The notes under the pieces were generated by a model. It saw only the letters and a list, made by a program, of their open reading frames with translations, was not told the origin of the DNA and did not search any database. DNA of 64,000 nucleotides from contig OZ024740.1 of NCBI GenBank assembly GCA_964016885.1, positions 415,834,001 through 415,898,000 on the forward strand, in the 5' to 3' direction. This DNA is from Eledone cirrhosa. Taxonomy: Eukaryota. Within the stretch, counting starts at the first letter, position 1, and the number at the start of each line of letters is the position of its first letter. This document shows, in pieces, positions 5,714-31,000 of this stretch. The translations under genes and the position numbers were made by a program.

Positions 5714-5785
5714 TTAACCCTTTTGACACCAAACTCTCTTAAACTGCCCTTGGTTCTATGATATAGAGCTATTTATTTTAAAGGG
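5714..5785 (+). mobile_element. piggyBac-like non-autonomous element terminus
   Basis: TTAA|CCCTTTTGACACCAA (TTAA target plus CCC terminus). The partner end is not clearly seen. Confidence 0.35.
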
Positions 5786-5807
5786 TTTATATTTATCTAA
5801 AAAGCTT

Positions 5808-6061
5808 ATAATAATAATAATGAAATTATTGTGTACAGTGCTCAGATGCACTACAACTCATCAAAAGTGCATCAAAAGTGTATGCATAGCACACAGGGCA
5901 ATGTACAAACGTCAGGAAAATGAACAGTGCATGAGTCATGAGTGTATGTGTATGGAAGGGGGACATCAGGTGTAGTTTTGGCGAATTTTGGGAAGCATGA
6001 GGGTTTTAAAGGATGCAGTGTCTCGGCAGCTAACAACTGACGCAGGTAGTTTGTTCCATGC
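5808..6061 (-). mobile_element. CR1/L2-type LINE 3' end
   Basis: Minus-strand AWNKLPASVVSCRDTASFKTLMLPKIRQNYT* (the WN.LP..VV.....FK C-terminal motif), followed by a ~150-bp 3' UTR and an (ATT)n tail at ~5808-5821. Confidence 0.78.
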
Positions 6062-6351
6062 TAGTATCTATTGTCTGATGGAGGGTATGTGCTTGGTTGC
6101 TTCAATCATAATTTTATGTAAGAACCTTTGTTTCAAATGAGAGAGTTATTTTACTAAATCAAAATTTTCAAAAGAATTTGAAAATCATTAACAGTCTCTT
6201 TCAATTTACATATACATAAAAAACAAATTTGAGAGACAAACTGGGTATAAGAGGAATTAGATATAGTGAGTAAAAGAGAAAATTACACTAGTATAGAAAA
6301 AGAGACACAAAATTCATGATGCCATTATATAATATATATATATTATATATA

Positions 6352-6639
6352 TCAGCAGAAGCTCTGTTTAATGTCCATTCTTCACGCTAGTATGGGTTAG
6401 ATGAGTTGCCCCATTGTGAGACAAGCCTAGTCCAATGTTAGAGGTGCCTACTGACTGTAGGTTTCGCTTTGTACTTAGGCAAGGTGGGTCTTCTGTATGA
6501 CTGTGTACCGCCAAAGATCTCAGTCCAGTGACATTGTCTTGGAGAGGTGTAAGTGTGTGAGGTCGGAATTTATCAAGTCGTCCCAGGTTTTTCTGGGTCT
6601 GCCTACTCCGTGACTACCGTCTATTTTTATCGCCCTGCA

Positions 6640-6644
<5 letters not shown>
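6352..6644 (-). mobile_element. RTE-clade LINE 3' end fragment
   Basis: Minus-strand KCRAIKIDGSHGVGRPRKTWDDLINSDLTHLHLSKTMSLD*DLWRYTVIQKTHLA*, then a 3' UTR and the same tail motif as at 5380. Confidence 0.83.

Positions 6645-6688
<44 letters not shown>
6644..6688. repeat. (TA)n microsatellite, ~22 units
   Basis: Seen directly. Confidence 0.97.
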
Positions 6689-6694
<6 letters not shown>

Positions 6695-6806
6695 GTGAAC
6701 AACACAAAATATAACTACTCCATTACCAAATGTTTCTGGATCAGAGACGATAATAATATACGTCTGGATCGTTGTTCAGACCGTATATTTTGGTAGATTT
6801 TTCTAC

Positions 6807-6817
6807 ATATATATATA

Positions 6818-6876
<59 letters not shown>
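6807..6876. repeat. (AT)n microsatellite, ~35 units, one phase slip near 6824
   Basis: Seen directly. Confidence 0.97.
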
Positions 6877-6877
<1 letters not shown>

Positions 6878-6878
<1 letters not shown>

Positions 6879-7010
6879 GGGAGAAAGACAGTCTCCCCCA
6901 CATCGACCCAATAGAGGGACCAGCAGTGTTAGTCGAGGGTAGTATAATAAGTAAGGCAATCAAAGATATGAAGATGGGTAAGGTGGTTGGGCCTTCGGAA
7001 ATTGCTAAAT
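6878..7010 (+). mobile_element. RTE-clade LINE internal ORF fragment, just upstream of the RT domain; runs into the satellite
   Basis: Stop-free frame WEKDSLPHIDPIEGPAVLVEGSIISKAIKDMKMGKVVGPSEIA. Matches the non-LTR pre-RT motif 'AI..MK.GKA.GP.GI.AE.LK'. Confidence 0.8.
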
Positions 7011-10000
7011 GTATTTACTACACACACCTTTAGAATTGCTAAATTTATTTGCTAATCAAACCTTTAGAATTGCTAAATTAATTAACTATTCAAACCTTTA
7101 GAATTGCTAAATGTATTTACTAGTCACACCTTTAGAATTGCTAAATGTATTTACTACTCATACCTTTAGAATTGCTAAATTTATTTACTACTCAACCTTT
7201 AGAATTGCTAAATTTATTTACTACTCAAACCTTTAGAATTGCTAAATTTATTTACTATTCAAACCTTTAGAATTGCTAAATTTATTAACTACTCAAACCT
7301 TTAGAATCGCTAAATGTATTTACTACTAAAACCTTTGGTATTGCTAAATTTATTACTACTCAAACCTTTAGAATTGCTAAATTTATTAACTACTCAAACC
7401 TTTAGAATTGCTAAATTTATTTACTACTCAAACCTTTAGAATTGGTAAATTTATTCACTACTCAAACCTTTAGAATTGCTAAATTTATTTACTACTCAAA
7501 CCTTTAGAATTGCTAAATTTATTCACTACTCAAACCTTTAGAATTGCTAAATTTATTCACTACTCAAACTTTTAGAATTGCTCAAATTATTTACTACTCA
7601 AACCTTTAGAATTGCTAAATTTATTTACTATTCAAACCTTTAGAATTGCTAAATTTATTTACTACTCAAACCTTTAGAATTGCTAAATTTATTTAATACT
7701 CAAACCTTTAGAATTGCTAATTTATTAACTATTCAAACCTTTAGAATTGATAAATTTATTTACTACTCAAACCTTTAGAATTGCTAAATTTATTTACTAT
7801 TCAATCCTTTAGAATTGCTAAATTTATTTACTACTCAAACCTTTAGAATTGCTAAATTTATTTACTACTCAAACCTTTAGAATTGCTAAATTCATTAACT
7901 ACTCAAACCTTTAGAATTGCTAAATTTATTTACTACTCAAACCTTTAGAATTGCTAAATGTATTTACTACTAACACCTTTAGAATTGCTAAATTTATTTA
8001 CTACTCAAACCTTTATAATTGCTAAATTTATTTACTACTCAAACCTTTAGAATTGCTAAATTTATTAACTGCTCAAACCTTTAGAATTGCTAAACGTATT
8101 TACTACTCAAACCTTTGGAATTGCTAAATTTATTTACTACTCAAACCTTTAGAATTGATAAATTTATTTACTACTCAAACCTTTAGAATTGCTAAATTTA
8201 TTTACTATTCAAACCTTTAGAATTGCTAAATTTATTCACTACTCAAACCTTTAGAATTGCTAAATTTATTTACTACTCAAACCATTAGAATTGATGAATT
8301 TATTTACTACTCAAACCTTTAGAATTGCTAAATTTATTACTAGTCAAACCTTTAGAATTGCTAAATTTATTAACTACTCAAACCTTTAGAATTGCTAAAT
8401 TTATTACTACTCAAACCTTTAGAATTGCTAAATTTATTAACTACTCAAACCTTTAGAATTGCTAAATTTATTTACTACTCAAACCTTTAGAATTGCTAAA
8501 TTTATTTACTATTCAAACCTTTAGAATTGCTAAATTTATTCACTACTCAAACCTTTAGAATTGCTAAATTTATTTACTACTCAAACCATTAGAATTGATG
8601 AATTTATTTACTACTCAAACCTTTAGAATTGCTAAATTTATTACTAGTCAAACCTTTAGAATTGCTAAATTTATTAACTACTCAAACCTTTAGAATTGCT
8701 AAATTTATTACTACTCAAACCTTTAGAATTGCTAAATTTATTAACTACTCAAACCTTTAGAATTGCTAAATTTATTTACTACTCAAACCTTTAGAATTGC
8801 TAAATTTATTTACTATTCAAACCTTTAGAATTGATGAATTTATTTACTACTCAAACCTTTAGAATTGCTAAATTTATTTATTACTCAAACCTTTAGAATT
8901 GCTAAATTTATTACTACTCAAACCTTTAGAATTGCTAAATTTATTAACTACTCAAACCTTTAGAATTGCTAAATTTATTTACTACCCAAACCTTTAGTAT
9001 TGCTAAATTTATTCACTACTCAAACCTTTAGAATTGCTAAATTTATTCACTACTCAAACCTTTTGAATTGCTAAATTTATTTACTACTCAAACTTTTAGA
9101 ATTGCTAAATTTATTTACTATTCAAACCTTTAGAATTGCTTAATTTATTTACTAGTCACAACTTTAGAATTGCTAAATGTATTTACTACTCACACCTTTA
9201 GAATTGCTAAATTTATTTACTAATCAAACCTTTAGAATTGCTAAATTAATTTACTATTCAAACCTTTAGAATTGCTAAATTTATTTACTAGTCACACCTT
9301 TAGAATTGCTAAATGTATTTACTACTCATACCTTTAGAATTGCTAAATTTATTTACTACTCAAACCTTTAGAATTGCTAAATTTATTTACTACTCAAACC
9401 TTTAGAATTGCTAAATTTATTTACTATTCAAACCTTTAGAATTGCTAAATTTATTAACTACTCAAACCTTTAGAATCGCTAAATCTATTTACTACTCAAA
9501 CCTTTGGTATTGCTAAATTTATTAACTACTCAAACCTTTAGAATTGCTAAATTTATTTACTACTCAAACCTTTAGAATTGCTAAATTTATTCACTACTCA
9601 AACCTTTAGAATTGCTAAATTTATTCACTACTCAAACTTTTAGAATTGCTCAAATTATTTACTACTCAAACCTTTAGAATTGCTAAATTTATTTACTATT
9701 CAAACCTTTAGAATTGCTAAATTTATATACTACTCAAACCTTTAGAATTTCTAAATGTATTTACTACTCACAACTTTAGAATTGCTAAATTTATTTACTA
9801 CTCAAACCTTTAGTATTGCTAAATTTATTTACTACTCAAACCTTTAGAATTGCTAAATTTATTAACTATTCAAACCTTTAGAATTGATAAATTTATTTAC
9901 TACTCAAACCTTTAGAATTGCTAAATTTATGAACTACTCAAACCTTTAGAATTGCTAAATATATTCACTACTCAAACCTTTAGAATTGCTAAATTAATTT

Positions 10001-13000
10001 ACTACTCAAACCTTTAGAATTGCTAAATTTATTAACTATTCAAACCTATAGAATTGCTAAAATAATTTACTACTCAAACCTTTAGAATTGCTAAATTTAT
10101 TTACTATTCAAACCTTTAGAATTGATGAATTTATTTACTACTCAAACCTTTAGAATTGCTAAATTTATTTATTACTCAAACCTTTAGAATTGCTAAATTT
10201 ATTACTACTCAAACCTTTAGAATTGCTAAATTTATTTACTATTCAAACCTTTAGAATTGATGAATTTATTTACTACTCAAACCTTTAGAATTGCTAAATT
10301 TATTTATTACTCAAACCTTTAGAATTGCTAAATTTATTACTACTCAAACCTTTAGAATTACTAAATTTATTAACTACTCAAACCTTTAGAATTGCTAAAT
10401 TTATTTACTACTCAAACCTTTAGAATTGCTCAATTTATTCACTACTCAAACCTTTAGAATTGCTAAATTTATTCACTACTCAAACCTTTTGAATTGCTAA
10501 ATTTATTTACTACTCAAACCTTTAGAATTGCTAAATTTATTTACTATTCAAACCTTTAGAATTGCTAAATTTATTTTCTAGTCACACCTTTAGAATTGCT
10601 AAATGTATTTACTACTCACACCTTTAGAATTGCTAAATTTATTTACTAATCAAACCTTTAGTATTGCTAAATTAATTTACTATTCAAACCTTTAGAATTG
10701 CTAAATTTATTTACTAGTCACACCTTTAGAATTGCTAAATGTATTTACTACTCATACCTTTAGAATTGCTAAATTTATTTACTACTCAACCTTTAGAATT
10801 GCTAAATTTATTTACTACTCAAACCTTTAGAATTGCTAAATTTATTTACTATTCAAACCTTTAGAATTGCTAAATTTATTAACTACTCAAACCTTTAGAA
10901 TCGCTAAATGTATTTACTACTCAAACCTTTGGTATTGCTAAATTTATTACTACTCAAACCTTTAGAATTGCTAAATTTATTAACTACTCAAACCTTTAGA
11001 ATTGCTAAATTTATTTACTACTCAAACCTTTAGAATTGGTAAATTTATTCACTACTCAAACCTTTAGAATTGCTAAATTTATTTACTACTCAAACCTTTA
11101 GAATTGCTAAATTTATTCACTACTCAAACCTTTAGAATTGCTAAATTTATTCACTACTCAAACTTTTAGAATTGCTCAAATTATTTACTACTCAAACCTT
11201 TAGAATTGCTAAATTTATTTACTATTCAAACCTTTAGAATTGCTAAATTTATTTACTACTCAAACCTTTAGAATTGCTAAATGTATTTACTACTCACACC
11301 TTTAGAATTGCTAAATTTATTTACTACTCAAACCTTTAGAATTGCTAAATTTATTTACTACTCAAACCTTTAGAATTGCTAAATTTATTTACTACTCAAA
11401 CCTTTAGAATTGCTAAATTTATTTACTACTCAAACCTTTAGAATTGCTAAATTTATTTACTATTCAAACCTTTAGAATTGCTAAATTTATTAACTACTCA
11501 AACCTTTAGAATCGCTAAATCTATTTACTACTCAAACCTTTGGTATTGCTAAATTTATTAACTACTCAAACCTTTAGAATTGCTAAATTTATTTACTACT
11601 CAAACCTTTAGAATTGCTAAATTTATTCACTACTCAAACCTTTAGAATTGCTAAATTTATTCACTACTCAAACTTTTAGAATTGCTCAAATTATTTACTA
11701 CTCAAACCTTTAGAATTGCTAAATTTATTTACTATTCAAACCTTTAGAATTGCTAAATTTATATACTACTCAAACCTTTAGAATTTCTAAATGTATTTAC
11801 TACTCACAACTTTAGAATTGCTAAATTTATTTACTACTCAAACCTTTAGTATTGCTAAATTTATTTACTACTCAAACCTTTAGAATTGCTAAATTTATTA
11901 ACTATTCAAACCTTTAGAATTGATAAATTTATTTACTACTCAAACCTTTAGAATTGCTAAATTTATGAACTACTCAAACCTTTAGAATTGCTAAATATAT
12001 TCACTACTCAAACCTTTAGAATTGCTAAATTAATTTACTACTCAAACCTTTAGAATTGCTAAATTTATTAACTATTCAAACCTATAGAATTGCTAAAATA
12101 ATTTACTACTCAAACCTTTAGAATTGCTAAATTTATTTACTATTCAAACCTTTAGAATTGATGAATTTATTTACTACTCAAACCTTTAGAATTGCTAAAT
12201 TTATTTATTACTCAAACCTTTAGAATTGCTAAATTTATTACTACTCAAACCTTTAGAATTGCTAAATTTATTTACTATTCAAACCTTTAGAATTGATGAA
12301 TTTATTTACTACTCAAACCTTTAGAATTGCTAAATTTATTTATTACTCAAACCTTTAGAATTGCTAAATTTATTACTACTCAAACCTTTAGAATTACTAA
12401 ATTTATTAACTACTCAAACCTTTAGAATTGCTAAATTTATTTACTACTCAAACCTTTAGAATTGCTCAATTTATTCACTACTCAAACCTTTAGAATTGCT
12501 AAATTTATTCACTACTCAAACCTTTTGAATTGCTAAATTTATTTACTACTCAAACCTTTAGAATTGCTAAATTTATTTACTATTCAAACCTTTAGAATTG
12601 CTAAATTTATTTTCTAGTCACACCTTTAGAATTGCTAAATGTATTTACTACTCACACCTTTAGAATTGCTAAATTTATTTACTAATCAAACCTTTAGTAT
12701 TGCTAAATTAATTTACTATTCAAACCTTTAGAATTGCTAAATTTATTTACTAGTCACACCTTTAGAATTGCTAAATGTATTTACTACTCATACCTTTAGA
12801 ATTGCTAAATTTATTTACTACTCAACCTTTAGAATTGCTAAATTTATTTACTACTCAAACCTTTAGAATTGCTAAATTTATTTACTATTCAAACCTTTAG
12901 AATTGCTAAATTTATTAACTACTCAAACCTTTAGAATCGCTAAATGTATTTACTACTCAAACCTTTGGTATTGCTAAATTTATTACTACTCAAACCTTTA

Positions 13001-16000
13001 GAATTGCTAAATTTATTAACTACTCAAACCTTTAGAATTGCTAAATTTATTTACTACTCAAACCTTTAGAATTGGTAAATTTATTCACTACTCAAACCTT
13101 TAGAATTGCTAAATTTATTTACTACTCAAACCTTTAGAATTGCTAAATTTATTCACTACTCAAACCTTTAGAATTGCTAAATTTATTCACTACTCAAACT
13201 TTTAGAATTGCTCAAATTATTTACTACTCAAACCTTTAGAATTGCTAAATTTATTTACTATTCAAACCTTTAGAATTGCTAAATTTATTTACTACTCAAA
13301 CCTTTAGAATTGCTAAATGTATTTACTACTCACACCTTTAGAATTGCTAAATTTATTTACTACTCAAACCTTTAGAATTGCTAAATTTATTTACTACTCA
13401 AACCTTTAGAATTGCTAAATTTATTCACTACTCAAACTTTTAGAATTGCTCAAATTATTTACTACTCACACCTTTAGAATTGCTAAATTTATTTACTATT
13501 CAAACCTTTAGAATTGCTAAATTTATTTACTACTCAAACCTTTAGAATTGCTAAATGTATTTACTACTCATACCTTTAGAATTGCTAAATTTATTTACTA
13601 CTCAAACCTTTAGAATTGCTAAATTTATTTACTACTCAAACCTTTAGAATTGCTAAATTTATTCACTACTCAAACCTTTAGAATTGCTAAATTTATTCAC
13701 TACTCAAACTTTTAGAATTGCTCAAATTATTTACTACTCAAACCTTTAGAATTGCTAAATTTATTTACTATTCAAATCTTTAGAATTGCTAAATTTATTT
13801 ACTACTCAAACCTTTAGAATTTCTAAATGTATTTACTACTCACAACTTTAGAATTGCTAAATTTATTTACTACTCAAACCTTTAGAATTGCTAAATTTAT
13901 TAACTATTCAAACCTTTAGAATTGATAAATTTATTTACTACTCAAACCTTTAGAATTGCTAAATTTATGAACTACTCAAACCTTTAGAATTGCTAAATTT
14001 ATTAACTACTCAAACCTTTAGAATTGCTAAATTTATTCACTACTCAAACCTTTAGAATTGCTAAATTTATTCACTACTCAAACCTTTAGAATTGCTAAAT
14101 TTATTTACTACTCAAACCTTTAGAATTGCTAAATGTATTTACTACTCACACCTTTAGAATTGCTAAATTTATTTACTACTCAAACCTTTAGAATTGCTAA
14201 ATTTATTTACTACTCAAACCTTTAGAATTGCTAAATTTATTCACTACTCAAACTTTTAGAATTGCTCAAATTATTTACTACTCACACCTTTAGAATTGCT
14301 AAATTTATTTACTATTCAAACCTTTAGAATTGCTAAATTTATTTACTACTCAAACCTTTAGAATTGCTAAATGTATTTACTACTCATACCTTTAGAATTG
14401 CTAAATTTATTTACTACTCAAACCTTTAGAATTGCTAAATTTATTTACTACTCAAACCTTTAGAATTGCTAAATTTATTCACTACACAAACCTTTAGAAT
14501 TGCTAAATTTATTCACTACTCAAACTTTTAGAATTGCTCAAATTATTTACTACTCAAACCTTTAGAATTGCTAAATTTATTTACTATTCAAATCTTTAGA
14601 ATTGCTAAATTTATTTACTACTCACAACTTTAGAATTGCTAAATGTATTTACTACTCACAACTTTAGAATTGCTAAATTTATTTACTACTCAAACCTTTA
14701 GAATTGCTAAATTTATTAACTATTCAAACCTTTAGAATTGATAAATTTATTTACTACTCAAACCTTTAGAATTGCTAAATTTATGAACTACTCAAACCTT
14801 TAGAATTGCTAAATTTATTAACAACACAAACCTTTAGAATTGCTAAATTTATTCACTACTCAAACCTTTAGAATTGCTAAATTTATTCACTACTCAAACC
14901 TTTAGAATTGATAAATTAATTTACTACTCAAACCTTTAGAATTGCTAAATTTATTAACTATTCAAACCTATAGAATTGCTAAAATTATTTACTACTCTAA
15001 CCTTTAGAATTGCTAAATTTATTTACTATTCAAACCTTTAGAATTGATGAATTTATTTACTACTCAAACCTTTAGAATTGCTAAATTTATTTATTACTCA
15101 AACCTTTAGAATTGCTAAATTTATTACTACTCAAACCTTTAGAATTGCTAAATTTATTAACTACTCAAACCTTTAGAATTGCTACATTTATTCACTACTC
15201 AAACCTTTAGAATTGCTAAATTTATTCACTACTCAAACTTTTAGAATTGCTCAAATTATTTACTACTCAAACCTTTAGAATTGCTAAATTTATTTACTAT
15301 TCAAACCTTTAGAATTGCTAAATTTATTTACTACTCAAACCTTTAGAATTACTAAATTTATTTACTACTCAAACCTTTAGAATTGCTAATTTATTAACTA
15401 TTCAAACCTTTAGAATTGATAAATTTATTTACTACTCAAACCTTTAGAATTGCTAAATTTATTTACTATTCAATCCTTTAGAATTGCTAAATTTATTTAC
15501 TACTCAAACCTTTAGAATTGCTAAATTTATTTACTACTCAAACCTTTAGAATTGCTAAATTCATTAACTACTCAAACCTTTAGAATTGCTAAATTTATTT
15601 ACTACTCAAACCTTTAGAATTGCTAAATGTATTTACTACTAACACCTTTAGAATTGCTAAATTTATTTACTACTCAAACCTTTATAATTGCTAAATTTAT
15701 TTACTACTCAAACCTTTAGAATTGCTAAATTTATTAACTGCTCAAACCTTTAGAATTGCTAAACGTATTTACTACTCAAACCTTTGGAATTGCTAAATTT
15801 ATTTACTACTCAAACCTTTAGAATTGATAAATTTATTTACTACTCAAACCTTTAGAATTGCTAAATTTATTTACTATTCAAACCTTTAGAATTGCTAAAT
15901 TTATTCACTACTCAAACCTTTAGAATTGCTAAATTTATTTACTACTCAAACCATTAGAATTGATGAATTTATTTACTACTCAAACCTTTAGAATTGCTAA

Positions 16001-19000
16001 ATTTATTACTAGTCAAACCTTTAGAATTGCTAAATTTATTAACTACTCAAACCTTTAGAATTGCTAAATTTATTACTACTCAAACCTTTAGAATTGCTAA
16101 ATTTATTAACTACTCAAACCTTTAGAATTGCTAAATTTATTTACTACTCAAACCTTTAGAATTGCTAAATTTATTTACTATTCAAACCTTTAGAATTGAT
16201 GAATTTATTTACTACTCAAACCTTTAGAATTGCTAAATTTATTTATTACTCAAACCTTTAGAATTGCTAAATTAATTACTACTCAAACCTTTAGAATTGC
16301 TAAATTTATTAACTACTCAAACCTTTAAAATTGCTAAATTTATTTACTACCCAAACCTTTAGTATTGCTAAATTTATTCACTACTCAAACCTTTAGAATT
16401 GCTAAATTTATTCACTACTCAAACCTTTTGAATTGCTAAATTTATTTACTACTCAAACCTTTAGAATTGCTAAATTTATTTACTATTCAAACCTTTAGAA
16501 TTGCTTAATTTATTTACTAGTCACACCTTTAGAATTGCTAAATGTATTTACTACTCACACCTTTAGAATTGCTAAATTTATTTACTAATCAAACCTTTAG
16601 AATTGCTAAATTAATTTACTATTCAAACCTTTAGAATTGCTAAATTTATTTACTAGTCACACCTTTAGAATTGCTAAATGTATTTACTACTCATACCTTT
16701 AGAATTGCTAAATTTATTTACTACTCAAACCTTTAGAATTGCTAAATTTATTTACTACTCAAACCTTTAGAATTGCTAAATTTATTTACTATTCAAACCT
16801 TTAGAATTGCTAAATTTATTAACTACTCAAACCTTTAGAATCGCTAAATCTATTTACTACTCAAACCTTTGGTATTGCTAAATTTATTAACTACTCAAAC
16901 CTTTAGAATTGCTAAATTTATTTACTACTCAAACCTTTAGAATTGCTAAATTTATTCACTACTCAAACCTTTAGAATTGCTAAATTTATTCACTACTCAA
17001 ACTTTTAGAATTGCTCAAATTATTTACTACTCAAACCTTTAGAATTGCTAAATTTATTTACTATTCAAACCTTTAGAATTGCTAAATTTATATACTACTC
17101 AAACCTTTAGAATTTCTAAATGTATTTACTACTCACAGCTTTAGAATTGCTAAATTTATTTACTACTCAAACCTTTAGTATTGCTAAATTTATTTACTAC
17201 TCAAACCTTTAGAATTGCTAAATTTATTAACTATTCAAACCTTTAGAATTGATAAATTTATTTACTACTCAAACCTTTAGAATTGCTAAATTTATGAACT
17301 ACTCAAACCTTTAGAATTGCTAAATATATTCACTACTCAAACCTTTAGAATTGCTAAATTAATTTACTACTCAAACCTTTAGAATTGCTAAATTTATTAA
17401 CTATTCAAACCTATAGAATTGCTAAAATAATTTACTACTCAAACCTTTAGAATTGCTAAATTTATTTACTATTCAAACCTTTAGAGTTGATGAATTTATT
17501 TACTACTCAAACCTTTAGAATTGCTAAATTTATTTATTACTCAAACCTTTAGAATTGCTAAATTTATTACTACTCAAACCTTTAGAATTGCTAAATTTAT
17601 TAACTACTCAAACCTTTAGAATTGCTAAATTTATTTACTACTCAAAGCTTTAGAATTGCTCAATTTATTCACTACTCAAACCTTTAGAATTGCTAAATTT
17701 ATTCACTACTCAAACCTTTTGAATTGCTAAATTTATTTACTACTCAAACCTTTAGAATTGCTAAATTTATTTACTATTCAAACCTTTAGAATTGCTAAAT
17801 TTATTTTCTAGTCACACCTTTAGAATTGCTAAATGTATTTACTACTCACACCTTTAGAATTGCTAAATTTATTTACTAATCAAACCTTTAGTATTGCTAA
17901 ATTAATTTACTATTCAAACCTTTAGAATTGCTAAATTTATTTACTAGTCACACCTTTAGAATTGCTAAATGTATTTACTACTCATACCTTTAGAATTGCT
18001 AAATTTATTTACTACTCAACCTTTAGAATTGCTAAATTTATTTACTACTCAAACCTTTAGAATTGCTAAATTTATTTACTATTCAAACCTTTAGAATTGC
18101 TAAATTTATTAACTACTCAAACCTTTAGAATCGCTAAATGTATTTACTACTCAAACCTTTGGTATTGCTAAATTTATTACTACTCAAACCTTTAGAATTG
18201 CTAAATTTATTAACTACTCAAACCTTTAGAATTGCTAAATTTATTTACTACTCAAACCTTTAGAATTGGTAAATTTATTCACTACTCAAACCTTTAGAAT
18301 TGCTAAATTTATTTACTACTCAAACCTTTAGAATTGCTAAATTTATTCACTACTCAAACCTTTAGAATTGCTAAATTTATTCACTACTCAAACTTTTAGA
18401 ATTGCTCAAATTATTTACTACTCAAACCTTTAGAATTGCTAAATTTATTTACTATTCAAACCTTTAGAATTGCTAAATTTATTTACTACTCAAACCTTTA
18501 GAATTGCTAAATGTATTTACTACTCACACCTTTAGAATTGCTAAATTTATTTACTACTCAAACCTTTAGAATTGCTAAATTTATTTACTACTCAAACCTT
18601 TAGAATTGCTAAATTTATTCACTACTCAAACTTTTAGAATTGCTCAAATTATTTACTACTCACACCTTTAGAATTGCTAAATTTATTTACTATTCAAACC
18701 TTTAGAATTGCTAAATTTATTTACTACTCAAACCTTTAGAATTGCTAAATGTATTTACTACTCATACCTTTAGAATTGCTAAATTTATTTACTACTCAAA
18801 CCTTTAGAATTGCTAAATTTATTTACTACTCAAACCTTTAGAATTGCTAAATTTATTCACTACTCAAACCTTCAGAATTGCTAAATTTATTCACTACTCA
18901 AACTTTTAGAATTGCTCAAATTATTTACTACTCAAACTTTTAGAATTGCTAAATTTATTTACTATTCAAATCTTTAGAATTGCTAAATTTATTTACTACT

Positions 19001-22000
19001 CAAACCTTTAGAATTTCTAAATGTATTTACTACTCACAACTTTAGAATTGCTAAATTTATTTACTACTCAAACCTTTAGAATTGCTAAATTTATTAACTA
19101 TTCAAACCTTTAGAATTGATAAATTTATTTACTACTCAAACCTTTAGAATTGCTAAATTTATGAACTACTCAAACCTTTAGAATTGCTAAATTTATTAAC
19201 TACTCAAACCTTTAGAATTGCTAAATTTATTCACTACTCAAACCTTTAGAATTGCTAAATTTATTCACTACTCAAACCTTTAGAATTGCTAAATTTATTT
19301 ACTACTCAAACCTTTAGAATTGCTAAATGTATTTACTACTCACACCTTTAGAATTGCTAAATTTATTTACTACTCAAACCTTTAGAATTGCTAAATTTAT
19401 TTACTACTCAAACCTTTAGAATTGCTAAATTTATTCACTACTCAAACTTTTAGAATTGCTCAAATTATTTACTACTCACACCTTTAGAATTGCTAAATTT
19501 ATTTACTATTCAAACCTTTAGAATTGCTAAATTTATTTACTACTCAAACCTTTAGAATTGCTAAATGTATTTACTACTCATACCTTTAGAATTGCTAAAT
19601 TTATTTACTACTCAAACCTTTAGAATTGCTAAATTTATTTACTACTCAAACCTTTAGAATTGCTAAATTTATTCACTACACAAACCTTTAGAATTGCTAA
19701 ATTTATTCACTACTCAAACTTTTAGAATTGCTCAAATTATTTACTACTCAAACCTTTAGAATTGCTAAATTTATTTACTATTCAAATCTTTAGAATTGCT
19801 AAATTTATTTACTACTCACAACTTTAGAATTGCTAAATGTATTTACTACTCACAACTTTAGAATTGCTAAATTTATTTACTACTCAAACCTTTAGAATTG
19901 CTAAATTTATTAACTATTCAAACCTTTAGAATTGATAAATTTATTTACTACTCAAACCTTTAGAATTGCTAAATTTATGAACTACTCAAACCTTTAGAAT
20001 TGCTAAATTTATTAACTACACAAACCTTTAGAATTGCTAAATTTATTCACTACTCAAACCTTTAGAATTGCTAAATTTATTCACTACTCAAACCTTTAGA
20101 ATTGATAAATTAATTTACTACTCAAACCTTTAGAATTGCTAAATTTATTAACTATTCAAACCTATAGAATTGCTAAAATTATTTACTACTCAAACCTTTA
20201 GAATTGCTAAATTTATTTACTACTCAAACCTTTAGAATTGCTAAATTTATTTACTATTCAAACCTTTAGAATTGCTAAATTTATTAACTACTCAAACCTT
20301 TAGAATCGCTAAATCTATTTACTACTCAAACCTTTGGTATTGCTAAATTTATTAACTACTCAAACCTTTAGAATTGCTAAATTTATTTACTACTCAAACC
20401 TTTAGAATTGCTAAATTTATTCACTACTCAAACCTTTAGAATTGCTAAATTTATTCACTACTCAAACTTTTAGAATTGCTCAAATTATTTACTACTCAAA
20501 CCTTTAGAATTGCTAAATTTATTTACTATTCAAACCTTTAGAATTGCTAAATTTATATACTACTCAAACCTTTAGAATTTCTAAATGTATTTACTACTCA
20601 CAACTTTAGAATTGCTAAATTTATTTACTACTCAAACCTTTAGTATTGCTAAATTTATTTACTACTCAAACCTTTAGAATTGCTAAATTTATTAACTATT
20701 CAAACCTTTAGAATTGATAAATTTATTTACTACTCAAACCTTTAGAATTGCTAAATTTATGAACTACTCAAACCTTTAGAATTGCTAAATATATTCACTA
20801 CTCAAACCTTTAGAATTGCTAAATTAATTTACTACTCAAACCTTTAGAATTGCTAAATTTATTAACTATTCAAACCTATAGAATTGCTAAAATAATTTAC
20901 TACTCAAACCTTTAGAATTGCTAAATTTATTTACTATTCAAACCTTTAGAATTGATGAATTTATTTACTACTCAAACCTTTAGAATTGCTAAATTTATTT
21001 ATTACTCAAACCTTTAGAATTGCTAAATTTATTACTACTCAAACCTTTAGAATTGCTAAATTTATTAACTACTCAAACCTTTAGAATTGCTAAATTTATT
21101 TACTACTCAAACCTTTAGAATTGCTCAATTTATTCACTACTCAAACCTTTAGAATTGCTAAATTTATTCACTACTCAAACCTTTTGAATTGCTAAATTTA
21201 TTTACTACTCAAACCTTTAGAATTGCTAAATTTATTTACTATTCAAACCTTTAGAATTGCTAAATTTATTTTCTAGTCACACCTTTAGAATTGCTAAATG
21301 TATTTACTACTCACACCTTTAGAATTGCTAAATTTATTTACTAATCAAACCTTTAGTATTGCTAAATTAATTTACTATTCAAACCTTTAGAATTGCTAAA
21401 TTTATTTACTAGTCACACCTTTAGAATTGCTAAATGTATTTACTACTCATACCTTTAGAATTGCTAAATTTATTTACTACTCAACCTTTAGAATTGCTAA
21501 ATTTATTTACTACTCAAACCTTTAGAATTGCTAAATTTATTTACTATTCAAACCTTTAGAATTGCTAAATTTATTAACTACTCAAACCTTTAGAATCGCT
21601 AAATGTATTTACTACTCAAACCTTTGGTATTGCTAAATTTATTACTACTCAAACCTTTAGAATTGCTAAATTTATTAACTACTCAAACCTTTAGAATTGC
21701 TAAATTTATTTACTACTCAAACCTTTAGAATTGGTAAATTTATTCACTACTCAAACCTTTAGAATTGCTAAATTTATTTACTACTCAAACCTTTAGAATT
21801 GCTAAATTTATTCACTACTCAAACCTTTAGAATTGCTAAATTTATTCACTACTCAAACTTTTAGAATTGCTCAAATTATTTACTACTCAAACCTTTAGAA
21901 TTGCTAAATTTATTTACTATTCAAACCTTTAGAATTGCTAAATTTATTTACTACTCAAACCTTTAGAATTGCTAAATGTATTTACTACTCACACCTTTAG

Positions 22001-25000
22001 AATTGCTAAATTTATTTACTACTCAAACCTTTAGAATTGCTAAATTTATTTACTACTCAAACCTTTAGAATTGCTAAATTTATTCACTACTCAAACTTTT
22101 AGAATTGCTCAAATTATTTACTACTCACACCTTTAGAATTGCTAAATTTATTTACTATTCAAACCTTTAGAATTGCTAAATTTATTTACTACTCAAAACT
22201 TTAGAATTGCTAAATGTATTTACTACTCATACCTTTAGAATTGCTAAATTTATTTACTACTCAAACCTTTAGAATTGCTAAATTTATTTACTACTCAAAC
22301 CTTTAGAATTGCTAAATTTATTCACTACTCAAACCTTTAGAATTGCTAAATTTATTCACTACTCAAACTTTTAGAATTGCTCAAATTATTTACTACTCAA
22401 ACCTTTAGAATTGCTAAATTTATTTACTATTCAAATCTTTAGAATTGCTAAATTTATTTACTACTCAAACCTTTAGAATTTCTAAATGTATTTACTACTC
22501 ACAACTTTAGAATTGCTAAATTTATTTACTACTCAAACCTTTAGAATTGCTAAATTTATTAACTATTCAAACCTTTAGAATTGATAAATTTATTTACTAC
22601 TCAAACCTTTAGAATTGCTAAATTTATGAACTACTCAAACCTTTAGAATTGCTAAATTTATTAACTACTCAAACCTTTAGAATTGCTAAATTTATTCACT
22701 ACTCAAACCTTTAGAATTGCTAAATTTATTCACTACTCAAACCTTTAGAATTGCTAAATTTATTTACTACTCAAACCTTTAGAATTGCTAAATGTATTTA
22801 CTACTCACACCTTTAGAATTGCTAAATTTATTTACTACTCAAACCTTTAGAATTGCTAAATTTATTTACTACTCAAACCTTTAGAATTGCTAAATTTATT
22901 CACTACTCAAACCTTTAGAATTGCTAAATTTATTCACTACTCAAACTTTTAGAATTGCTCAAATTATTTACTACTCAAACCTTTAGAATTGCTAAATTTA
23001 TTTACTATTCAAACCTTTAGAATTGCTAAATTTATTTACTACTCAAACCTTTAGAATTGCTAAATGTATTTACTACTCACACCTTTAGAATTGCTAAATT
23101 TATTTACTACTCAAACCTTTAGAATTGCTAAATTTATTTACTACTCAAACCTTTAGAATTGCTAAATTTATTCACTACTCAAACTTTTAGAATTGCTCAA
23201 ATTATTTACTACTCACACCTTTAGAATTGCTAAATTTATTTACTATTCAAACCTTTAGAATTGATGAATTTATTTACTACTCAAACCTTTAGAATTGCTA
23301 AATTTATTTATTACTCAAACCTTTAGAATTGCTAAATTTATTACTACTCAAACCTTTAGAATTGCTAAATTTATTAACTACTCAAACCTTTAGAATTGCT
23401 AAATTTATTTACTACTCAAACCTTTAGAATTGCTCAATTTATTCACTACTCAAACCTTTAGAATTGCTAAATTTATTCACTACTCAAACCTTTTGAATTG
23501 CTAAATTTATTTACTACTCAAACCTTTAGAATTGCTAAATTTATTTACTATTCAAACCTTTAGAATTGCTAAATTTATTTTCTAGTCACACCTTTAGAAT
23601 TGCTAAATGTATTTACTACTCACACCTTTAGAATTGCTAAATTTATTTACTAATCAAACCTTTAGTATTGCTAAATTAATTTACTATTCAAACCTTTAGA
23701 ATTGCTAAATTTATTTACTAGTCACACCTTTAGAATTGCTAAATGTATTTACTACTCATACCTTTAGAATTGCTAAATTTATTTACTACTCAACCTTTAG
23801 AATTGCTAAATTTATTTACTACTCAAACCTTTAGAATTGCTAAATTTATTTACTATTCAAACCTTTAGAATTGCTAAATTTATTAACTACTCAAACCTTT
23901 AGAATCGCTAAATGTATTTACTACTCAAACCTTTGGTATTGCTAAATTTATTACTACTCAAACCTTTAGAATTGCTAAATTTATTAACTACTCAAACCTT
24001 TAGAATTGCTAAATTTATTTACTACTCAAACCTTTAGAATTGGTAAATTTATTCACTACTCAAACCTTTAGAATTGCTAAATTTATTTACTACTCAAACC
24101 TTTAGAATTGCTAAATTTATTCACTACTCAAACCTTTAGAATTGCTAAATTTATTCACTACTCAAACTTTTAGAATTGCTCAAATTATTTACTACTCAAA
24201 CCTTTAGAATTGCTAAATTTATTTACTATTCAAACCTTTAGAATTGCTAAATTTATTTACTACTCAAACCTTTAGAATTGCTAAATGTATTTACTACTCA
24301 CACCTTTAGAATTGCTAAATTTATTTACTACTCAAACCTTTAGAATTGCTAAATTTATTTACTACTCAAACCTTTAGAATTGCTAAATTTATTCACTACT
24401 CAAACTTTTAGAATTGCTCAAATTATTTACTACTCACACCTTTAGAATTGCTAAATTTATTTACTATTCAAACCTTTAGAATTGCTAAATTTATTTACTA
24501 CTCAAAACTTTAGAATTGCTAAATGTATTTACTACTCATACCTTTAGAATTGCTAAATTTATTTACTACTCAAACCTTTAGAATTGCTAAATTTATTTAC
24601 TACTCAAACCTTTAGAATTGCTAAATTTATTCACTACTCAAACCTTTAGAATTGCTAAATTTATTCACTACTCAAACTTTTAGAATTGCTCAAATTATTT
24701 ACTACTCAAACCTTTAGAATTGCTAAATTTATTTACTATTCAAATCTTTAGAATTGCTAAATTTATTTACTACTCAAACCTTTAGAATTTCTAAATGTAT
24801 TTACTACTCACAACTTTAGAATTGCTAAATTTATTTACTACTCAAACCTTTAGAATTGCTAAATTTATTAACTATTCAAACCTTTAGAATTGATAAATTT
24901 ATTTACTACTCAAACCTTTAGAATTGCTAAATTTATGAACTACTCAAACCTTTAGAATTGCTAAATTTATTAACTACTCAAACCTTTAGAATTGCTAAAT

Positions 25001-28000
25001 TTATTCACTACTCAAACCTTTAGAATTGCTAAATTTATTCACTACTCAAACCTTTAGAATTGCTAAATTTATTTACTACTCAAACCTTTAGAATTGCTAA
25101 ATGTATTTACTACTCACACCTTTAGAATTGCTAAATTTATTTACTACTCAAACCTTTAGAATTGCTAAATTTATTTACTACTCAAACCTTTAGAATTGCT
25201 AAATTTATTCACTACTCAAACCTTTAGAATTGCTAAATTTATTCACTACTCAAACTTTTAGAATTGCTCAAATTATTTACTACTCAAACCTTTAGAATTG
25301 CTAAATTTATTTACTATTCAAACCTTTAGAATTGCTAAATTTATTTACTACTCAAACCTTTAGAATTGCTAAATGTATTTACTACTCACACCTTTAGAAT
25401 TGCTAAATTTATTTACTACTCAAACCTTTAGAATTGCTAAATTTATTTACTACTCAAACCTTTAGAATTGCTAAATTTATTCACTACTCAAACTTTTAGA
25501 ATTGCTCAAATTATTTACTACTCACACCTTTAGAATTGCTAAATTTATTTACTATTCAAACCTTTAGAATTGCTAAATTTATTTACTACTCAAACCTTTA
25601 GAATTGCTAAATGTATTTACTACTCATACCTTTAGAATTGCTAAATTTATTTACTACTCAAACCTTTAGAATTGCTAAATTTATTTACTACTCAAACCTT
25701 TAGAATTGCTAAATTTATTCACTACTCAAACCTTTAGAATTGCTAAATTTATTCACTACTCAAACTTTTAGAATTGCTCAAATTATTTACTACTCAAACC
25801 TTTAGAATTGCTAAATTTATTTACTATTCAAATCTTTAGAATTGCTAAATTTATTTACTACTCAAACCTTTAGAATTTCTAAATGTATTTACTACTCAAA
25901 CCTTTAGAATTGCTAAATTTATTAACTATTCAAACCTTTAGAATTGATAAATTTATTTACTACTCAAACCTTTAGAATTGCTAAATTTATGAACTACTCA
26001 AACCTTTAGAATTGCTAAATTTATTAACTACTCAAACCTTTAGAATTGCTAAATTTATTCACTACTCAAACCTTTAGAATTGCTAAATTTATTCACTACT
26101 CAAACCTTTAGAATTGCTAAATTTATTTACTACTCAAACCTTTAGAATTGCTAAATGTATTTACTACTCACACCTTTAGAATTGCTAAATTTATTTACTA
26201 CTCAAACCTTTAGAATTGCTAAATTTATTTACTACTCAAACCTTTAGAATTGCTAAATTTATTCACTACTCAAACTTTTAGAATTGCTCAAATTATTTAC
26301 TACTCACACCTTTAGAATTGCTAAATTTATTTACTATTCAAACCTTTAGAATTGCTAAATTTATTTACTACTCAAACCTTTAGAATTGCTAAATGTATTT
26401 ACTACTCATACCTTTAGAATTGCTAAATTTATTTACTACTCAAACCTTTAGAATTGCTAAATTTATTTACTACTCAAACCTTTAGAATTGCTAAATTTAT
26501 TCAATACACAAACCTTTAGAATTGCTAAATTTATTCACTACTCAAACTTTTAGAATTGCTCAAATTATTTACTACTCAAACCTTTAGAATTGCTAAATTT
26601 ATTTACTATTCAAACCTTTAGAATTGCTAAATGTATTTACTACTCACACCTTTAGAATTGCTAAATTTATTTACTACTTAAACCTTTAGAATTGCTAAAT
26701 TTATTTACTACTCAAACCTTTAGAATTGCTAAATTTATTCACCACTCAAACTTTTAGAATTGCTCAAATTATTTACTACTCACACCTTTAGAATTGCTAA
26801 ATTTATTTACTATTCAAACCTTTAGAATTGCTAAATTTATTTACTACTCAAACCTTTAGAATTGCTAAATGTATTTACTACTCATACCTTTAGAATTGCT
26901 AAATTTATTTACTACTCAAACCTTTAGAATTGCTAAATTTATTAACTATTCAAACCTATAGAATTGCTAAAATTATTTACTACTCAAACCTTTAGAATTG
27001 CTAAATTTATTTACTACTCAAACCTTTAGAATTGCTAAATTTATTTACTATTCAAACCTTTAGAATTGCTAAATTTATTAACTACTCAAACCTTTAGAAT
27101 TGCTAAATTTATTTACTATTCAAACCTTTAGAATTGCTAAATTTATTAACTACTCAAACCTTTAGAATCGCTAAATCTATTTACTACTCAAACCTTTGGT
27201 ATTGCTAAATTTATTAACTACTCAAACCTTTAGAATTGCTAAATTTATTTACTACTCAAACCTTTAGAATTGCTAAATTTATTCACTACTCAAACCTTTA
27301 GAATTGCTAAATTTATTCACTACTCAAACTTTTAGAATTGCTCAAATTATTTACTACTCAAACCTTTAGAATTGCTAAATTTATTTACTATTCAAACCTT
27401 TAGAATTGCTAAATTTATATACTACTCAAACCTTTAGAATTTCTAAATGTATTTACTACTCACAACTTTAGAATTGCTAAATTTATTTACTACTCAAACC
27501 TTTAGTATTGCTAAATTTATTTACTACTCAAACCTTTAGAATTGCTAAATTTATTAACTATTCAAACCTTTAGAATTGATAAATTTATTTACTACTCAAA
27601 CCTTTAGAATTGCTAAATTTATGAACTACTCAAACCTTTAGAATTGCTAAATATATTCACTACTCAAACCTTTAGAATTGCTAAATTAATTTACTACTCA
27701 AACCTTTAGAATTGCTAAATTTATTAACTATTCAAACCTATAGAATTGCTAAAATAATTTACTACTCAAACCTTTAGAATTGCTAAATTTATTTACTATT
27801 CAAACCTTTAGAATTGATGAATTTATTTACTACTCAAACCTTTAGAATTGCTAAATTTATTTATTACTCAAACCTTTAGAATTGCTAAATTTATTACTAC
27901 TCAAACCTTTAGAATTGCTAAATTTATTAACTACTCAAACCTTTAGAATTGCTAAATTTATTTACTACTCAAACCTTTAGAATTGCTCAATTTATTCACT

Positions 28001-31000
28001 ACTCAAACCTTTAGAATTGCTAAATTTATTCACTACTCAAACCTTTTGAATTGCTAAATTTATTTACTACTCAAACCTTTAGAATTGCTAAATTTATTTA
28101 ATATTCAAACCTTTAGAATTGCTAAATTTATTTTCTAGTCACACCTTTAGAATTGCTAAATGTATTTACTACTCACACCTTTAGAATTGCTAAATTTATT
28201 TACTAATCAAACCTTTAGTATTGCTAAATTAATTTACTATTCAAACCTTTAGAATTGCTAAATTTATTTACTAGTCACACCTTTAGAATTGCTAAATGTA
28301 TTTACTACTCATACCTTTAGAATTGCTAAATTTATTTACTACTCAACCTTTAGAATTGCTAAATTTATTTACTACTCAAACCTTTAGAATTGCTAAATTT
28401 ATTTACTATTCAAACCTTTAGAATTGCTAAATTTATTAACTACTCAAACCTTTAGAATCGCTAAATGTATTTACTACTCAAACCTTTGGTATTGCTAAAT
28501 TTATTACTACTCAAACCTTTAGAATTGCTAAATTTATTAACTACTCAAACCTTTAGAATTGCTAAATTTATTTACTACTCAAACCTTTAGAATTGGTAAA
28601 TTTATTCACTACTCAAACCTTTAGAATTGCTAAATTTATTTACTACTCAAACCTTTAGAATTGCTAAATTTATTCACTACTCAAACCTTTAGAATTGCTA
28701 AATTTATTCACTACTCAAACTTTTAGAATTGCTCAAATTATTTACTACTCAAACCTTTAGAATTGCTAAATTTATTTACTATTCAAACCTTTAGAATTGC
28801 TAAATTTATTTACTACTCAAACCTTTAGAATTGCTAAATGTATTTACTACTCACACCTTTAGAATTGCTAAATTTATTTACTACTCAAACCTTTAGAATT
28901 GCTAAATTTATTTACTACTCAAACCTTTAGAATTGCTAAATTTATTCACTACTCAAACTTTTAGAATTGCTCAAATTATTTACTACTCACACCTTTAGAA
29001 TTGCTAAATTTATTTACTATTCAAACCTTTAGAATTGCTAAATTTATTTACTACTCAAAACTTTAGAATTGCTAAATGTATTTACTACTCATACCTTTAG
29101 AATTGCTAAATTTATTTACTACTCAAACCTTTAGAATTGCTAAATTTATTTACTACTCAAACCTTTAGAATTGCTAAATTTATTCACTACTCACACCTTT
29201 AGAATTGCTAAATTTATTCACTACTCAAACTTTTAGAATTGCTCAAATTATTTACTACTCAAACCTTTAGAATTGCTAAATTTATTTACTATTCAAATCT
29301 TTAGAATTGCTAAATTTATTTACTACTCAAACCTTTAGAATTTCTAAATGTATTTACTACTCACAACTTTAGAATTGCTAAATTTATTTACTACTCAAAC
29401 CTTTAGAATTGCTAAATTTATTAACTATTCAAACCTTTAGAATTGATAAATTTATTTACTACTCAAACCTTTAGAATTGCTAAATTTATGAACTACTCAA
29501 ACCTTTAGAATTGCTAAATTTATTAACTACTCAAACCTTTAGAATTGCTAAATTTATTCACTACTCAAACCTTTAGAATTGCTAAATTTATTCACTACTC
29601 AAACCTTTAGAATTGCTAAATTTATTTACTACTCAAACCTTTAGAATTGCTAAATGTATTTACTACTCACACCTTTAGAATTGCTAAATTTATTTACTAC
29701 TCAAACCTTTAGAATTGCTAAATTTATTTACTACTCAAACCTTTAGAATTGCTAAATTTATTCACTACTCAAACCTTTAGAATTGCTAAATTTATTCACT
29801 ACTCAAACTTTTAGAATTGCTCAAATTATTTACTACTCAAACCTTTAGAATTGCTAAATTTATTTACTATTCAAACCTTTAGAATTGCTAAATTTATTTA
29901 CTACTCAAACCTTTAGAATTGCTAAATGTATTTACTACTCACACCTTTAGAATTGCTAAATTTATTTACTACTCAAACCTTTAGAATTGCTAAATTTATT
30001 TACTACTCAAACCTTTAGAATTGCTAAATTTATTCACTACTCAAACTTTTAGAATTGCTCAAATTATTTACTACTCACACCTTTAGAATTGCTAAATTTA
30101 TTTACTATTCAAACCTTTAGAATTGCTAAATTTATTTACTACTCAAACCTTTAGAATTGCTAAATGTATTTACTACTCATACCTTTAGAATTGCTAAATT
30201 TATTTACTACTCAAACCTTTAGAATTGCTAAATTTATTTACTACTCAAACCTTTAGAATTGCTAAATTTATTCACTACTCAAACCTTTAGAATTGCTAAA
30301 TTTATTCACTACTCAAACTTTTAGAATTGCTCAAATTATTTACTACTCAAACCTTTAGAATTGCTAAATTTATTTACTATTCAAATCTTTAGAATTGCTA
30401 AATTTATTTACTACTCAAACCTTTAGAATTTCTAAATGTATTTACTACTCAAACCTTTAGAATTGCTAAATTTATTAACTATTCAAACCTTTAGAATTGA
30501 TAAATTTATTTACTACTCAAACCTTTAGAATTGCTAAATTTATGAACTACTCAAACCTTTAGAATTGCTAAATTTATTAACTACTCAAACCTTTAGAATT
30601 GCTAAATTTATTCACTACTCAAACCTTTAGAATTGCTAAATTTATTCACTACTCAAACCTTTAGAATTGCTAAATTTATTTACTACTCAAACCTTTAGAA
30701 TTGCTAAATGTATTTACTACTCACACCTTTAGAATTGCTAAATTTATTTACTACTCAAACCTTTAGAATTGCTAAATTTATTTACTACTCAAACCTTTAG
30801 AATTGCTAAATTTATTCACTACTCAAACTTTTAGAATTGCTCAAATTATTTACTACTCACACCTTTAGAATTGCTAAATTTATTTACTATTCAAACCTTT
30901 AGAATTGCTAAATTTATTTACTACTCAAACCTTTAGAATTGCTAAATGTATTTACTACTCATACCTTTAGAATTGCTAAATTTATTTACTACTCAAACCT

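What the first reader, a model, noticed from the sequence alone, without database searches (positions are those of the whole stretch)
6878..7330. A 57-kb satellite begins inside an RTE LINE reading frame, where LINE and monomer sequences coincide
Seen: the LINE frame ...GGT AAG GTG GTT GGG CCT TCG GAA ATT GCT AAA TG... passes without a seam into the array. The first unit (6992-7026, CCTTCGGAAATTGCTAAATGTATTTACTACACACA, 35 bp) serves both as LINE codons P-S-E-I-A and as a variant of CCTTTAGAATTGCTAAAT. Established: RTE ORFs read GP(S)GI.AEMLK here, so the expected LINE DNA (CC. TC. GGA AT. .. GC. GA. ATG) resembles the monomer's first ~19 nt. Inference: either (a) the satellite was seeded from this LINE segment and amplified in place, or (b) a pre-existing array joined the LINE by microhomology. 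Favouring (b): the first ten monomers already follow the mature higher-order variant order (TGT..CAC, AATC, TAAT..ATTC, AGTCAC, TGT..CAT, CAAC, .., TCG, TGGTA) that recurs at e.g. 10590-10940.
Basis: partly seen in the sequence, partly recalled or inferred. Interest (0 to 1): 0.72.

Follow-up and report, generated by a model that had tools for sequence, protein, structure and literature searches.

The report
Satellite born from dead hAT transposase
This 289,000-base block of satellite DNA is built from a 34-base piece of a dead DNA-transposon (hAT) gene whose remains still sit at its far end, not from the LINE at its near end; a related animal has only single-copy depth at this spot, so the array likely grew here in one lineage and was likely joined to the LINE later, when a deletion removed its left edge.

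Summary
The RTE piece is 127 bp (6876-7002) and overlaps the array by only 3 bases. The monomer matches the LINE no better than shuffles do (11/34 in register), and the LINE does not resume at the far end. The array is one locus of 289 kb (about 8,500 units; 4,970 of 4,972 genome-wide motif hits). At its right end it runs in register into the fossil C-terminus of a hAT transposase. The monomer matches 21 scattered, non-tandem copies of that hAT family at a median of 28/34. In a related organism's contigs the orthologous spot appears to hold at least three diverged units at single-copy depth, with ancestral hAT bases, so the large expansion is likely lineage-specific. The left edge lies in phase with interior higher-order blocks and the hAT's upstream part is missing, so a deletion with end-joining likely fused it to a truncated LINE. 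Reads did not confirm that junction. TE-born satellites are known (CACTA tnp2 in Chenopodium). The scan noted others elsewhere in this genome, but not this array.

The parts
7000..64000 (+). 34-bp satellite array. It continues beyond the window to G000:C1:416,130,163 (289,164 bp in all, about 8,500 units, one orientation, no N, no foreign insertion seen). Outside the window, at G000:C1:416,130,129-416,130,733, its last unit is the first 34 bp of the fossil C-terminal part of a hAT transposase gene (frameshifted, with a stop, and interrupted by an inserted repeat of about 230 bp with inverted ends).
   Evidence: array; hAT fossil:
7000..7364 (+). Left-edge block, in phase with a higher-order block that recurs inside the array. 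It carries 6 substitutions not shared with the 8 best interior copies, 5 of them in the first 114 bp.
   Evidence: the 8 best interior copies are identical to each other and each differs from the edge at the same 6 sites
7000..7002 (+). 3-base overlap between LINE and monomer: the junction
   Evidence: chance of 3 or more is 5.3%
6876..7002 (+). 127-bp internal fragment of a young RTE-type LINE ORF, upstream of the RT domain. Its 5' end abuts (TA)n and its 3' part is missing.
   Evidence: 2-3 differences from each of 29 siblings; RVT_1 in a sibling
6807..6876 (.). (TA)n run at the 5' end of the RTE fragment
   Evidence: 10 of 18 siblings with a visible 5' end also start at (TA)n (counted by eye)
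6687..6806 (.). Piece of another high-copy dispersed repeat between two (TA)n runs; its class was not tested
6436..6649 (-). Second fragment of the same RTE family (end of ORF, start of 3' UTR, tail missing). It is joined with a 2-base overlap to the tail of an older repeat at about 6364-6437.

Best explanation
The 34-bp monomer is a slice of a dead hAT transposase gene whose downstream remainder still forms the array's right edge, and it likely began as a short tandem duplication that was later amplified in place in this lineage, after which a deletion likely removed the left edge and joined it to a truncated LINE. Step 1 (shown): the unit equals 11 codons plus one base at the start of the hAT dimerisation region (L-K-P-L-E-L-L-N-L-x-T). 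Step 2 (shown indirectly, from one contig): a related organism has at least three diverged units at this spot, at single-copy depth and with the ancestral bases, so the first duplications predate the split. Step 3 (inferred): unequal exchange or block re-replication raised the array to about 8,500 units with higher-order blocks, some copied so recently that they are identical over 365 bp. Step 4 (inferred): after those blocks existed, end-joining across a deletion fused an interior unit to a 5'-truncated RTE copy at a 3-base overlap. This removed the LINE's 3' part, the hAT's upstream part and the original left edge. The new edge then dropped out of homogenisation and gathered private changes. 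No function is implied.
For: Single locus: 4,970 of 4,972 exact 23-mer hits lie in the array; the other two are solo copies on C3 and C12. The right edge aligns in register with dispersed copies across the monomer and beyond. One such copy hits PF05699 Dimer_Tnp_hAT above the curated cut-off (22.8 vs 21.4 bits) and matches a 249-aa hAT ORF at E=2e-16 (that ORF hits PF05699 at 1.1e-11). The array's own edge was hit by that protein at E=1.8e-4. Of 29 loci examined, 22 covered the monomer (one is the array itself); the 21 paralogs match at 18-31 of 34, median 28, against 11 of 34 for the LINE, and none has a second unit upstream. In run X1 (organism A) a 925-base contig spans two extra units, the fossil and the start of the inserted repeat, at depth 18.9 (another contig in the flank: 17), whereas summed depth on the monomers in organism B is 39,000-140,000 against about 9 in the flank. 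X1 has G at unit column 4 and A at column 31, as in 17 and 18 of 21 paralogs. A profile of the hAT's upstream 150 bp finds nothing in 37 kb left or 78 kb right of the array, while detecting 15 of 21 planted paralogs. Edge phase and private changes.
Against: No read or contig was shown to bridge the LINE/array junction (only 16 of 1,288 pieces were listed, none bridging; the two RAD runs had no reads on the monomers). The 3-base overlap is near chance (5.3%), so microhomology-mediated joining is not demonstrated over plain end-joining. The array's own fossil gave no Pfam hAT hit and no tblastn hit from three hAT ORFs; it is assigned through paralogs. The ortholog rests on one contig whose letters I could not see in full (40 of 186 difference rows shown); the number of units there is unknown, and contraction in organism A is not excluded. 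The paralogs' own short direct repeat would favour a 31-bp period, not 34, so how the first 34-bp unit was cut is unexplained. The upstream-profile control missed 6 of 21.
Confidence: 0.8

Rival explanations
1. The satellite was seeded from the RTE segment at the junction and amplified in place.
For: The frame runs on without a stop, and a gapped alignment gives 16 matches in 24 columns with the matched variant (17 with one LINE copy, L178). Earlier scan notes report LINE-born satellites elsewhere in this genome (unchecked).
Against: 11/34 in register; score not above other LINE windows or shuffles (46% of 300 shuffles do as well against the whole LINE). The LINE does not resume at the far end. 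hAT paralogs explain all 34 positions.
Confidence: 0.01
2. The hAT origin holds, but the RTE piece is a patch copied in during repair of the break that removed the left edge (internal priming on LINE RNA or templated insertion), not a pre-existing insertion that was cut.
For: The piece is short, lacks its tail, points the way cDNA primed from the array end would point, and ends in a small overlap. A second tail-less RTE piece lies head to head 230 bp away.
Against: A (TA)n-abutting 5' end is usual for ordinary copies of this family (10 of 18), and 4 of 29 siblings are 3'-cut or internally deleted within 1.5 kb. The second piece belongs to a block that also exists at C1:101.87 Mb with an intact tail and without the first piece, which argues against one twin-priming event.
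Confidence: 0.14
3. The LINE/array junction is an assembly join between two repeats.
For: It sits 127 bp from a long (TA)n run and between two high-copy repeats; no bridging record was listed.
Against: The first units carry substitutions not found in the matching interior copies (4 of the first 10 units are unique against 189 of 8,512 overall), and the (TA)n/LINE join is unique in the genome (1 hit). Both suggest a real, aged edge. No N lies in 374 kb.
Confidence: 0.05

Closest known systems
CficCl-61-40 satellite of Chenopodium, from the tnp2 domain of the CACTA-like element Jozin (Belyayev et al. 2020, PMC7320549; abstract and section 5 read)
   Same: A roughly 40-bp piece of a broken DNA-transposase coding region is the terminal monomer of the array, in the same orientation, at 82-95% identity to the satellite consensus.
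   Different: Here the parent is a hAT transposase in an animal. The satellite is confined to one 289-kb locus instead of being the major multi-locus family. None of 21 paralogs has spawned an array. A low-copy state appears visible at the orthologous site in a relative.
TE-derived satellites in general (Zattera and Bruschi 2022 review, PMC9659126; passages and part of its table seen; author names recalled)
   Same: ORF pieces of TEs (CR1, L1, gag, Tnp2) are listed as satellite sources.
   Different: The whole word 'hAT' occurs twice in that text, both times in reference titles; I saw no hAT-transposase case in the passages shown.
TE/array junctions of rye pSc200 and pSc250 (PMC4857426; passages read)
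   Same: TEs abut arrays directly or through 1-10 nt, attributed to end-joining or microhomology-driven repair, with no monomer origin implied.
   Different: There many junctions were surveyed, mostly at LTR termini. Here there is one junction, inside a LINE ORF.

Membership tests
TE-derived satellite DNA (parent: hAT transposase) | Monomer matches a segment of a dispersed TE far above chance | tested here: met
   18-31 of 34, median 28, in 21 paralogs
TE-derived satellite DNA (parent: hAT transposase) | Array edge continuous and in register with the parent element | tested here: met
   Right edge:
TE-derived satellite DNA (parent: hAT transposase) | Direction: the segment is single and part of the ORF in other copies (not a captured satellite) | tested here: met
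   No upstream second unit in 21 of 21 paralogs; the segment reads in frame into the dimerisation region
hAT superfamily (parent fossil) | C-terminal dimerisation region PF05699 | tested here: met
   Met through paralog L127 and related ORFs. The array's own frameshifted fossil did not hit Pfam directly.
hAT superfamily (parent fossil) | Terminal inverted repeats and 8-bp target-site duplication | not tested
   The left part of the element is absent; the right terminus was not mapped.
LINE-derived satellite (RTE) | Monomer matches the LINE above chance | tested here: not met
LINE-derived satellite (RTE) | LINE resumes beyond the array | tested here: not met
   RTE matches to the right are about 68% identical, on the opposite strand, and 8.5 kb or more away.
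RTE-type LINE (fragment 6876-7002) | Piece of a single endonuclease-RT ORF family with a short-repeat tail | tested here: met
Siblings carry RVT_1, a 955-aa ORF and a (GAT)n tail.
Twin-priming 5' inversion | Inverted upstream piece plus tailed 3' piece from one event, bracketed by a target duplication | tested here: not met
   The 3' piece has no tail, the two pieces lie 1.4 kb apart in the LINE, and the 3' block exists elsewhere without the inverted piece.
Microhomology-mediated end joining | Junction overlap of 2 or more bases, enriched over chance | tested here: inconclusive
   3 bases; chance 5.3%; one junction only

The most novel reading that the evidence does not exclude
One locus preserves the whole life of a satellite: the dead hAT transposase that supplied the 34-mer, a few-unit seed still standing at the orthologous site in a related organism, a 289-kb higher-order array in this lineage, and a deletion scar that erased one edge. 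With the other TE-born arrays noted in this genome, it would let one test directly what decides whether a seed tandem explodes: position rather than sequence, since 21 paralogous copies of the same segment stayed single.
Probability: 0.6. Interest if true: 0.55.

Novelty: new member of a known kind. Interest (0 to 1): 0.4.

Why it matters
Satellite origins are usually inferred from resemblance alone. Here the parent is still attached, unexpanded paralogs give the ancestral sequence, and a relative seems to hold the seed stage, so order and rate of amplification can be measured. The case is also a caution: the TE that abuts an array, even with an apparently seamless frame, need not be its source. 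The phenomenon itself is known and no function is shown.

Tried and rejected
LINE origin of the monomer: rejected. LINE resuming at the far end: not found. Other arrays of this monomer: none by exact 23-mer; the two outside hits are solo; diverged arrays lacking that exact motif were not searched genome-wide, beyond the 40 candidates scored in each. Twin priming: rejected. A donor locus for the (TA)n/LINE join: none, 1 hit, the window itself. hAT upstream sequence in the left flank: not found; a 71% match at window 5714-6062 to a paralog's flank is in the wrong orientation and was set aside as another repeat. tblastn with three hAT ORFs missed even the right-edge fossil, so it was not used as evidence of absence. 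Read support for the left junction: inconclusive. Literature searches for a hAT-transposase-derived satellite and for octopus satellites listed nothing that describes this case; I saw these only as listings, and the library lacks most subscription journals. No supplements were opened; those of PMC7320549 and PMC9659126 could hold further cases. Scan look-ups near this place and by sequence found nothing relevant.

Full report
Observation. The window holds a 34-bp tandem array from 7000 to its end. A frame WEKDSL...VVGPSEIAKC runs from 6878 into it. A genome search with 6876-7012 scored 40 of 1,366 candidates; apart from the window itself, all 39 match only to query base 127, window 7002. In the 29 sibling loci fetched, the fragment differs at 2-3 of 127 sites and every copy continues as PSEIVAE(M/L)LK. 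Siblings carry RVT_1, a 955-aa ORF and a (GAT)n tail. So the LINE piece is real, young and 127 bp long, and only 7000-7002 fit both LINE and monomer.

Is the LINE/monomer likeness more than chance? No. In register the monomer matches the LINE at 11 of 34. Local alignment at the junction scores 13 (consensus) or 15 (matched variant); 41% and 24% of 3,526 windows of one LINE copy score as well, and 258 and 118 of 2,000 shuffles reach it. Against the whole LINE, 46% of 300 shuffles do as well as the real monomer. A random LINE/array join has 3 or more overlapping bases in 5.3% of 200,000 trials.

Extent. Contiguous stretches show one uninterrupted, single-orientation array ending at G000:C1:416,130,163: 289,164 bp, about 8,500 units, 481 variants, no N. 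It holds 4,970 of the genome's 4,972 exact matches to a 23-base motif. The other two are solo, on C3 and C12. The LINE does not resume: RTE matches to the right are about 68% identical, on the other strand, and at least 8.5 kb away.

The far end gives the source. The last unit and the 120 bases after it align with dispersed loci at 74-80%. They translate as PLELLNLFTNYKFSEII, then after a frameshift LRIFLTIPA...FSKL. The C3 paralog reads through openly and hits PF05699, the hAT dimerisation region, at 22.8 bits (cut-off 21.4). It matches a 249-aa ORF at E=2e-16 that hits PF05699 at 1.1e-11, and as a query it finds 146 places including the array's edge (E=1.8e-4). The edge fossil itself gave no Pfam hAT hit. 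Of 29 loci from a DNA search, 22 covered the monomer, one being the array. The 21 paralogs match it at 18-31 of 34 (median 28; the two lowest carry a one-base shift), and none has a second unit upstream. All 34 bases are accounted for: the unit is the codons L-K-P-L-E-L-L-N-L-x-T plus one base. Two columns are derived in the array: column 4 (G in 17 of 21 paralogs, C in none) and column 31 (A in 18 of 21). The array keeps the ancestral letters as minor variants (61 and 1,159 motif counts).

A relative. Run X1 (organism A) shared 0.10 of the flank's words. Laid at 80% likeness, one 925-base contig covers the two preceding units, the fossil and the start of the inserted repeat (L050:2068-2350; 31 other letters, 3 gaps) at depth 18.9, with 641 more bases upstream. 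At least 9 of those differences lie outside the two units, leaving at most 25, whereas non-tandem paralogs need 32-42 edits over the same 68 bases. The depth profile suggests the other X1 contigs join only near the last unit. Depth over the monomers is 18-22 in X1, like its flank, but 39,000-140,000 summed in organism B (X2, X4), whose flank contigs have 0 differences and depth near 9 in X2. The tool warns that summed depth is no copy number, so I read this only qualitatively. X1 shows the ancestral G and A. I infer a short seed array older than the split and a lineage-specific expansion. This rests on one contig, partly displayed (40 of 186 difference rows), and contraction in organism A is not excluded.

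The left edge. Bases 7000-7364 match eight interior places (10594 to 46794) at 6 mismatches. Those eight are identical to each other, and 5 of the 6 edge-specific changes lie in the first 114 bp. The paralogs share about 180 bp upstream of the monomer; a profile of 150 bp of it finds nothing in 37 kb to the left or 78 kb to the right, while it detects 15 of 21 planted paralogs. So the hAT's left part is gone, as is the LINE's 3' part. A (TA)n-abutting 5' end is normal for this LINE (10 of 18 siblings with a visible 5' end, by eye), and 4 of 29 siblings are cut or deleted within 1.5 kb downstream. The simplest reading is a deletion between a truncated LINE copy and the array, sealed at a 3-base overlap. 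A repair patch copied from LINE RNA would look the same and remains a rival. Twin priming with the head-to-head piece at 6436-6649 is unlikely: that piece has no tail, and its block also stands at C1:101.87 Mb with the same 5' break, an intact tail and no second piece. Reads did not settle whether the junction is real: none of the 16 listed pieces (of 1,288) bridges it, and two RAD runs had no reads on the monomers. The private edge substitutions argue against misassembly.

Comparison. The closest case is the Chenopodium satellite whose start monomer is a ~40-bp piece of CACTA tnp2 (PMC7320549, abstract and section 5). A review lists ORF-derived satellites from CR1, L1, gag and Tnp2 (PMC9659126, passages). 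Direct TE/array joins without shared origin are described in rye (PMC4857426, passages). Searches listed no hAT-transposase case; that is a limited library seen as listings. Earlier scan notes (unchecked) report satellites born in hAT MITEs, a Helitron transposase and LINE ends elsewhere in this genome, and call the organism octopus-like; I did not test that.

Verdict. The real finding lies 289 kb away: a single-locus satellite with its hAT parent attached and a probable seed stage in a relative. It is a clean new member of a known kind. Interest 0.40.

Noticed in passing
window 1-694 and at least 30 kb upstream (L181, L180, L047): A second satellite, 69-bp unit, at least 445 copies, ends 6.3 kb left of this array. 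Its unit aligns best to the RTE ORF near the W-Y-G-H-V motif (score 44; 300 shuffles mean 28, maximum 46), so it may itself derive from an older LINE. This is suggestive only.
   Followed up: partly
window 6438-6876 and L198 (G000:C1:101,874,438-101,874,550 and flanks): The composite block RTE 3' piece / (TA)n / other repeat piece / (TA)n occurs at a second locus 314 Mb away with the same breakpoints (RTE part 199 of 207 identical; another RTE copy, L179, is 201 of 207). There the tail is intact and an inverted copy of the piece's end follows. How it was duplicated is unexplained.
   Followed up: partly
L050:2282-2511 (G000:C1:416,130,282-416,130,511): An abundant repeat of about 230 bp with inverted ends (MITE-like) is inserted in the hAT fossil; its start is also on the organism A contig, so it predates the split.
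   Followed up: partly
hAT paralogs, for example L127 around 1613-1650: The paralogs carry a short direct repeat 31 bp apart around the monomer, which would favour a 31-bp unit; the satellite's period is 34.
   Followed up: no
L166 (G000:C28, about 45.34 Mb) and L167 (G000:C4, about 219.4 Mb): Two nearly identical open hAT transposase frames of 885 and 870 aa (L166: DUF4371 and PF05699), a distant and apparently young family.
   Followed up: no
G000:C211 (four places about 130-175 kb apart) and C5:12.49-13.06 Mb (four places about 170-220 kb apart): Identically scoring hAT matches recur at wide, regular spacing, suggesting very large tandem segmental repeats.
   Followed up: no
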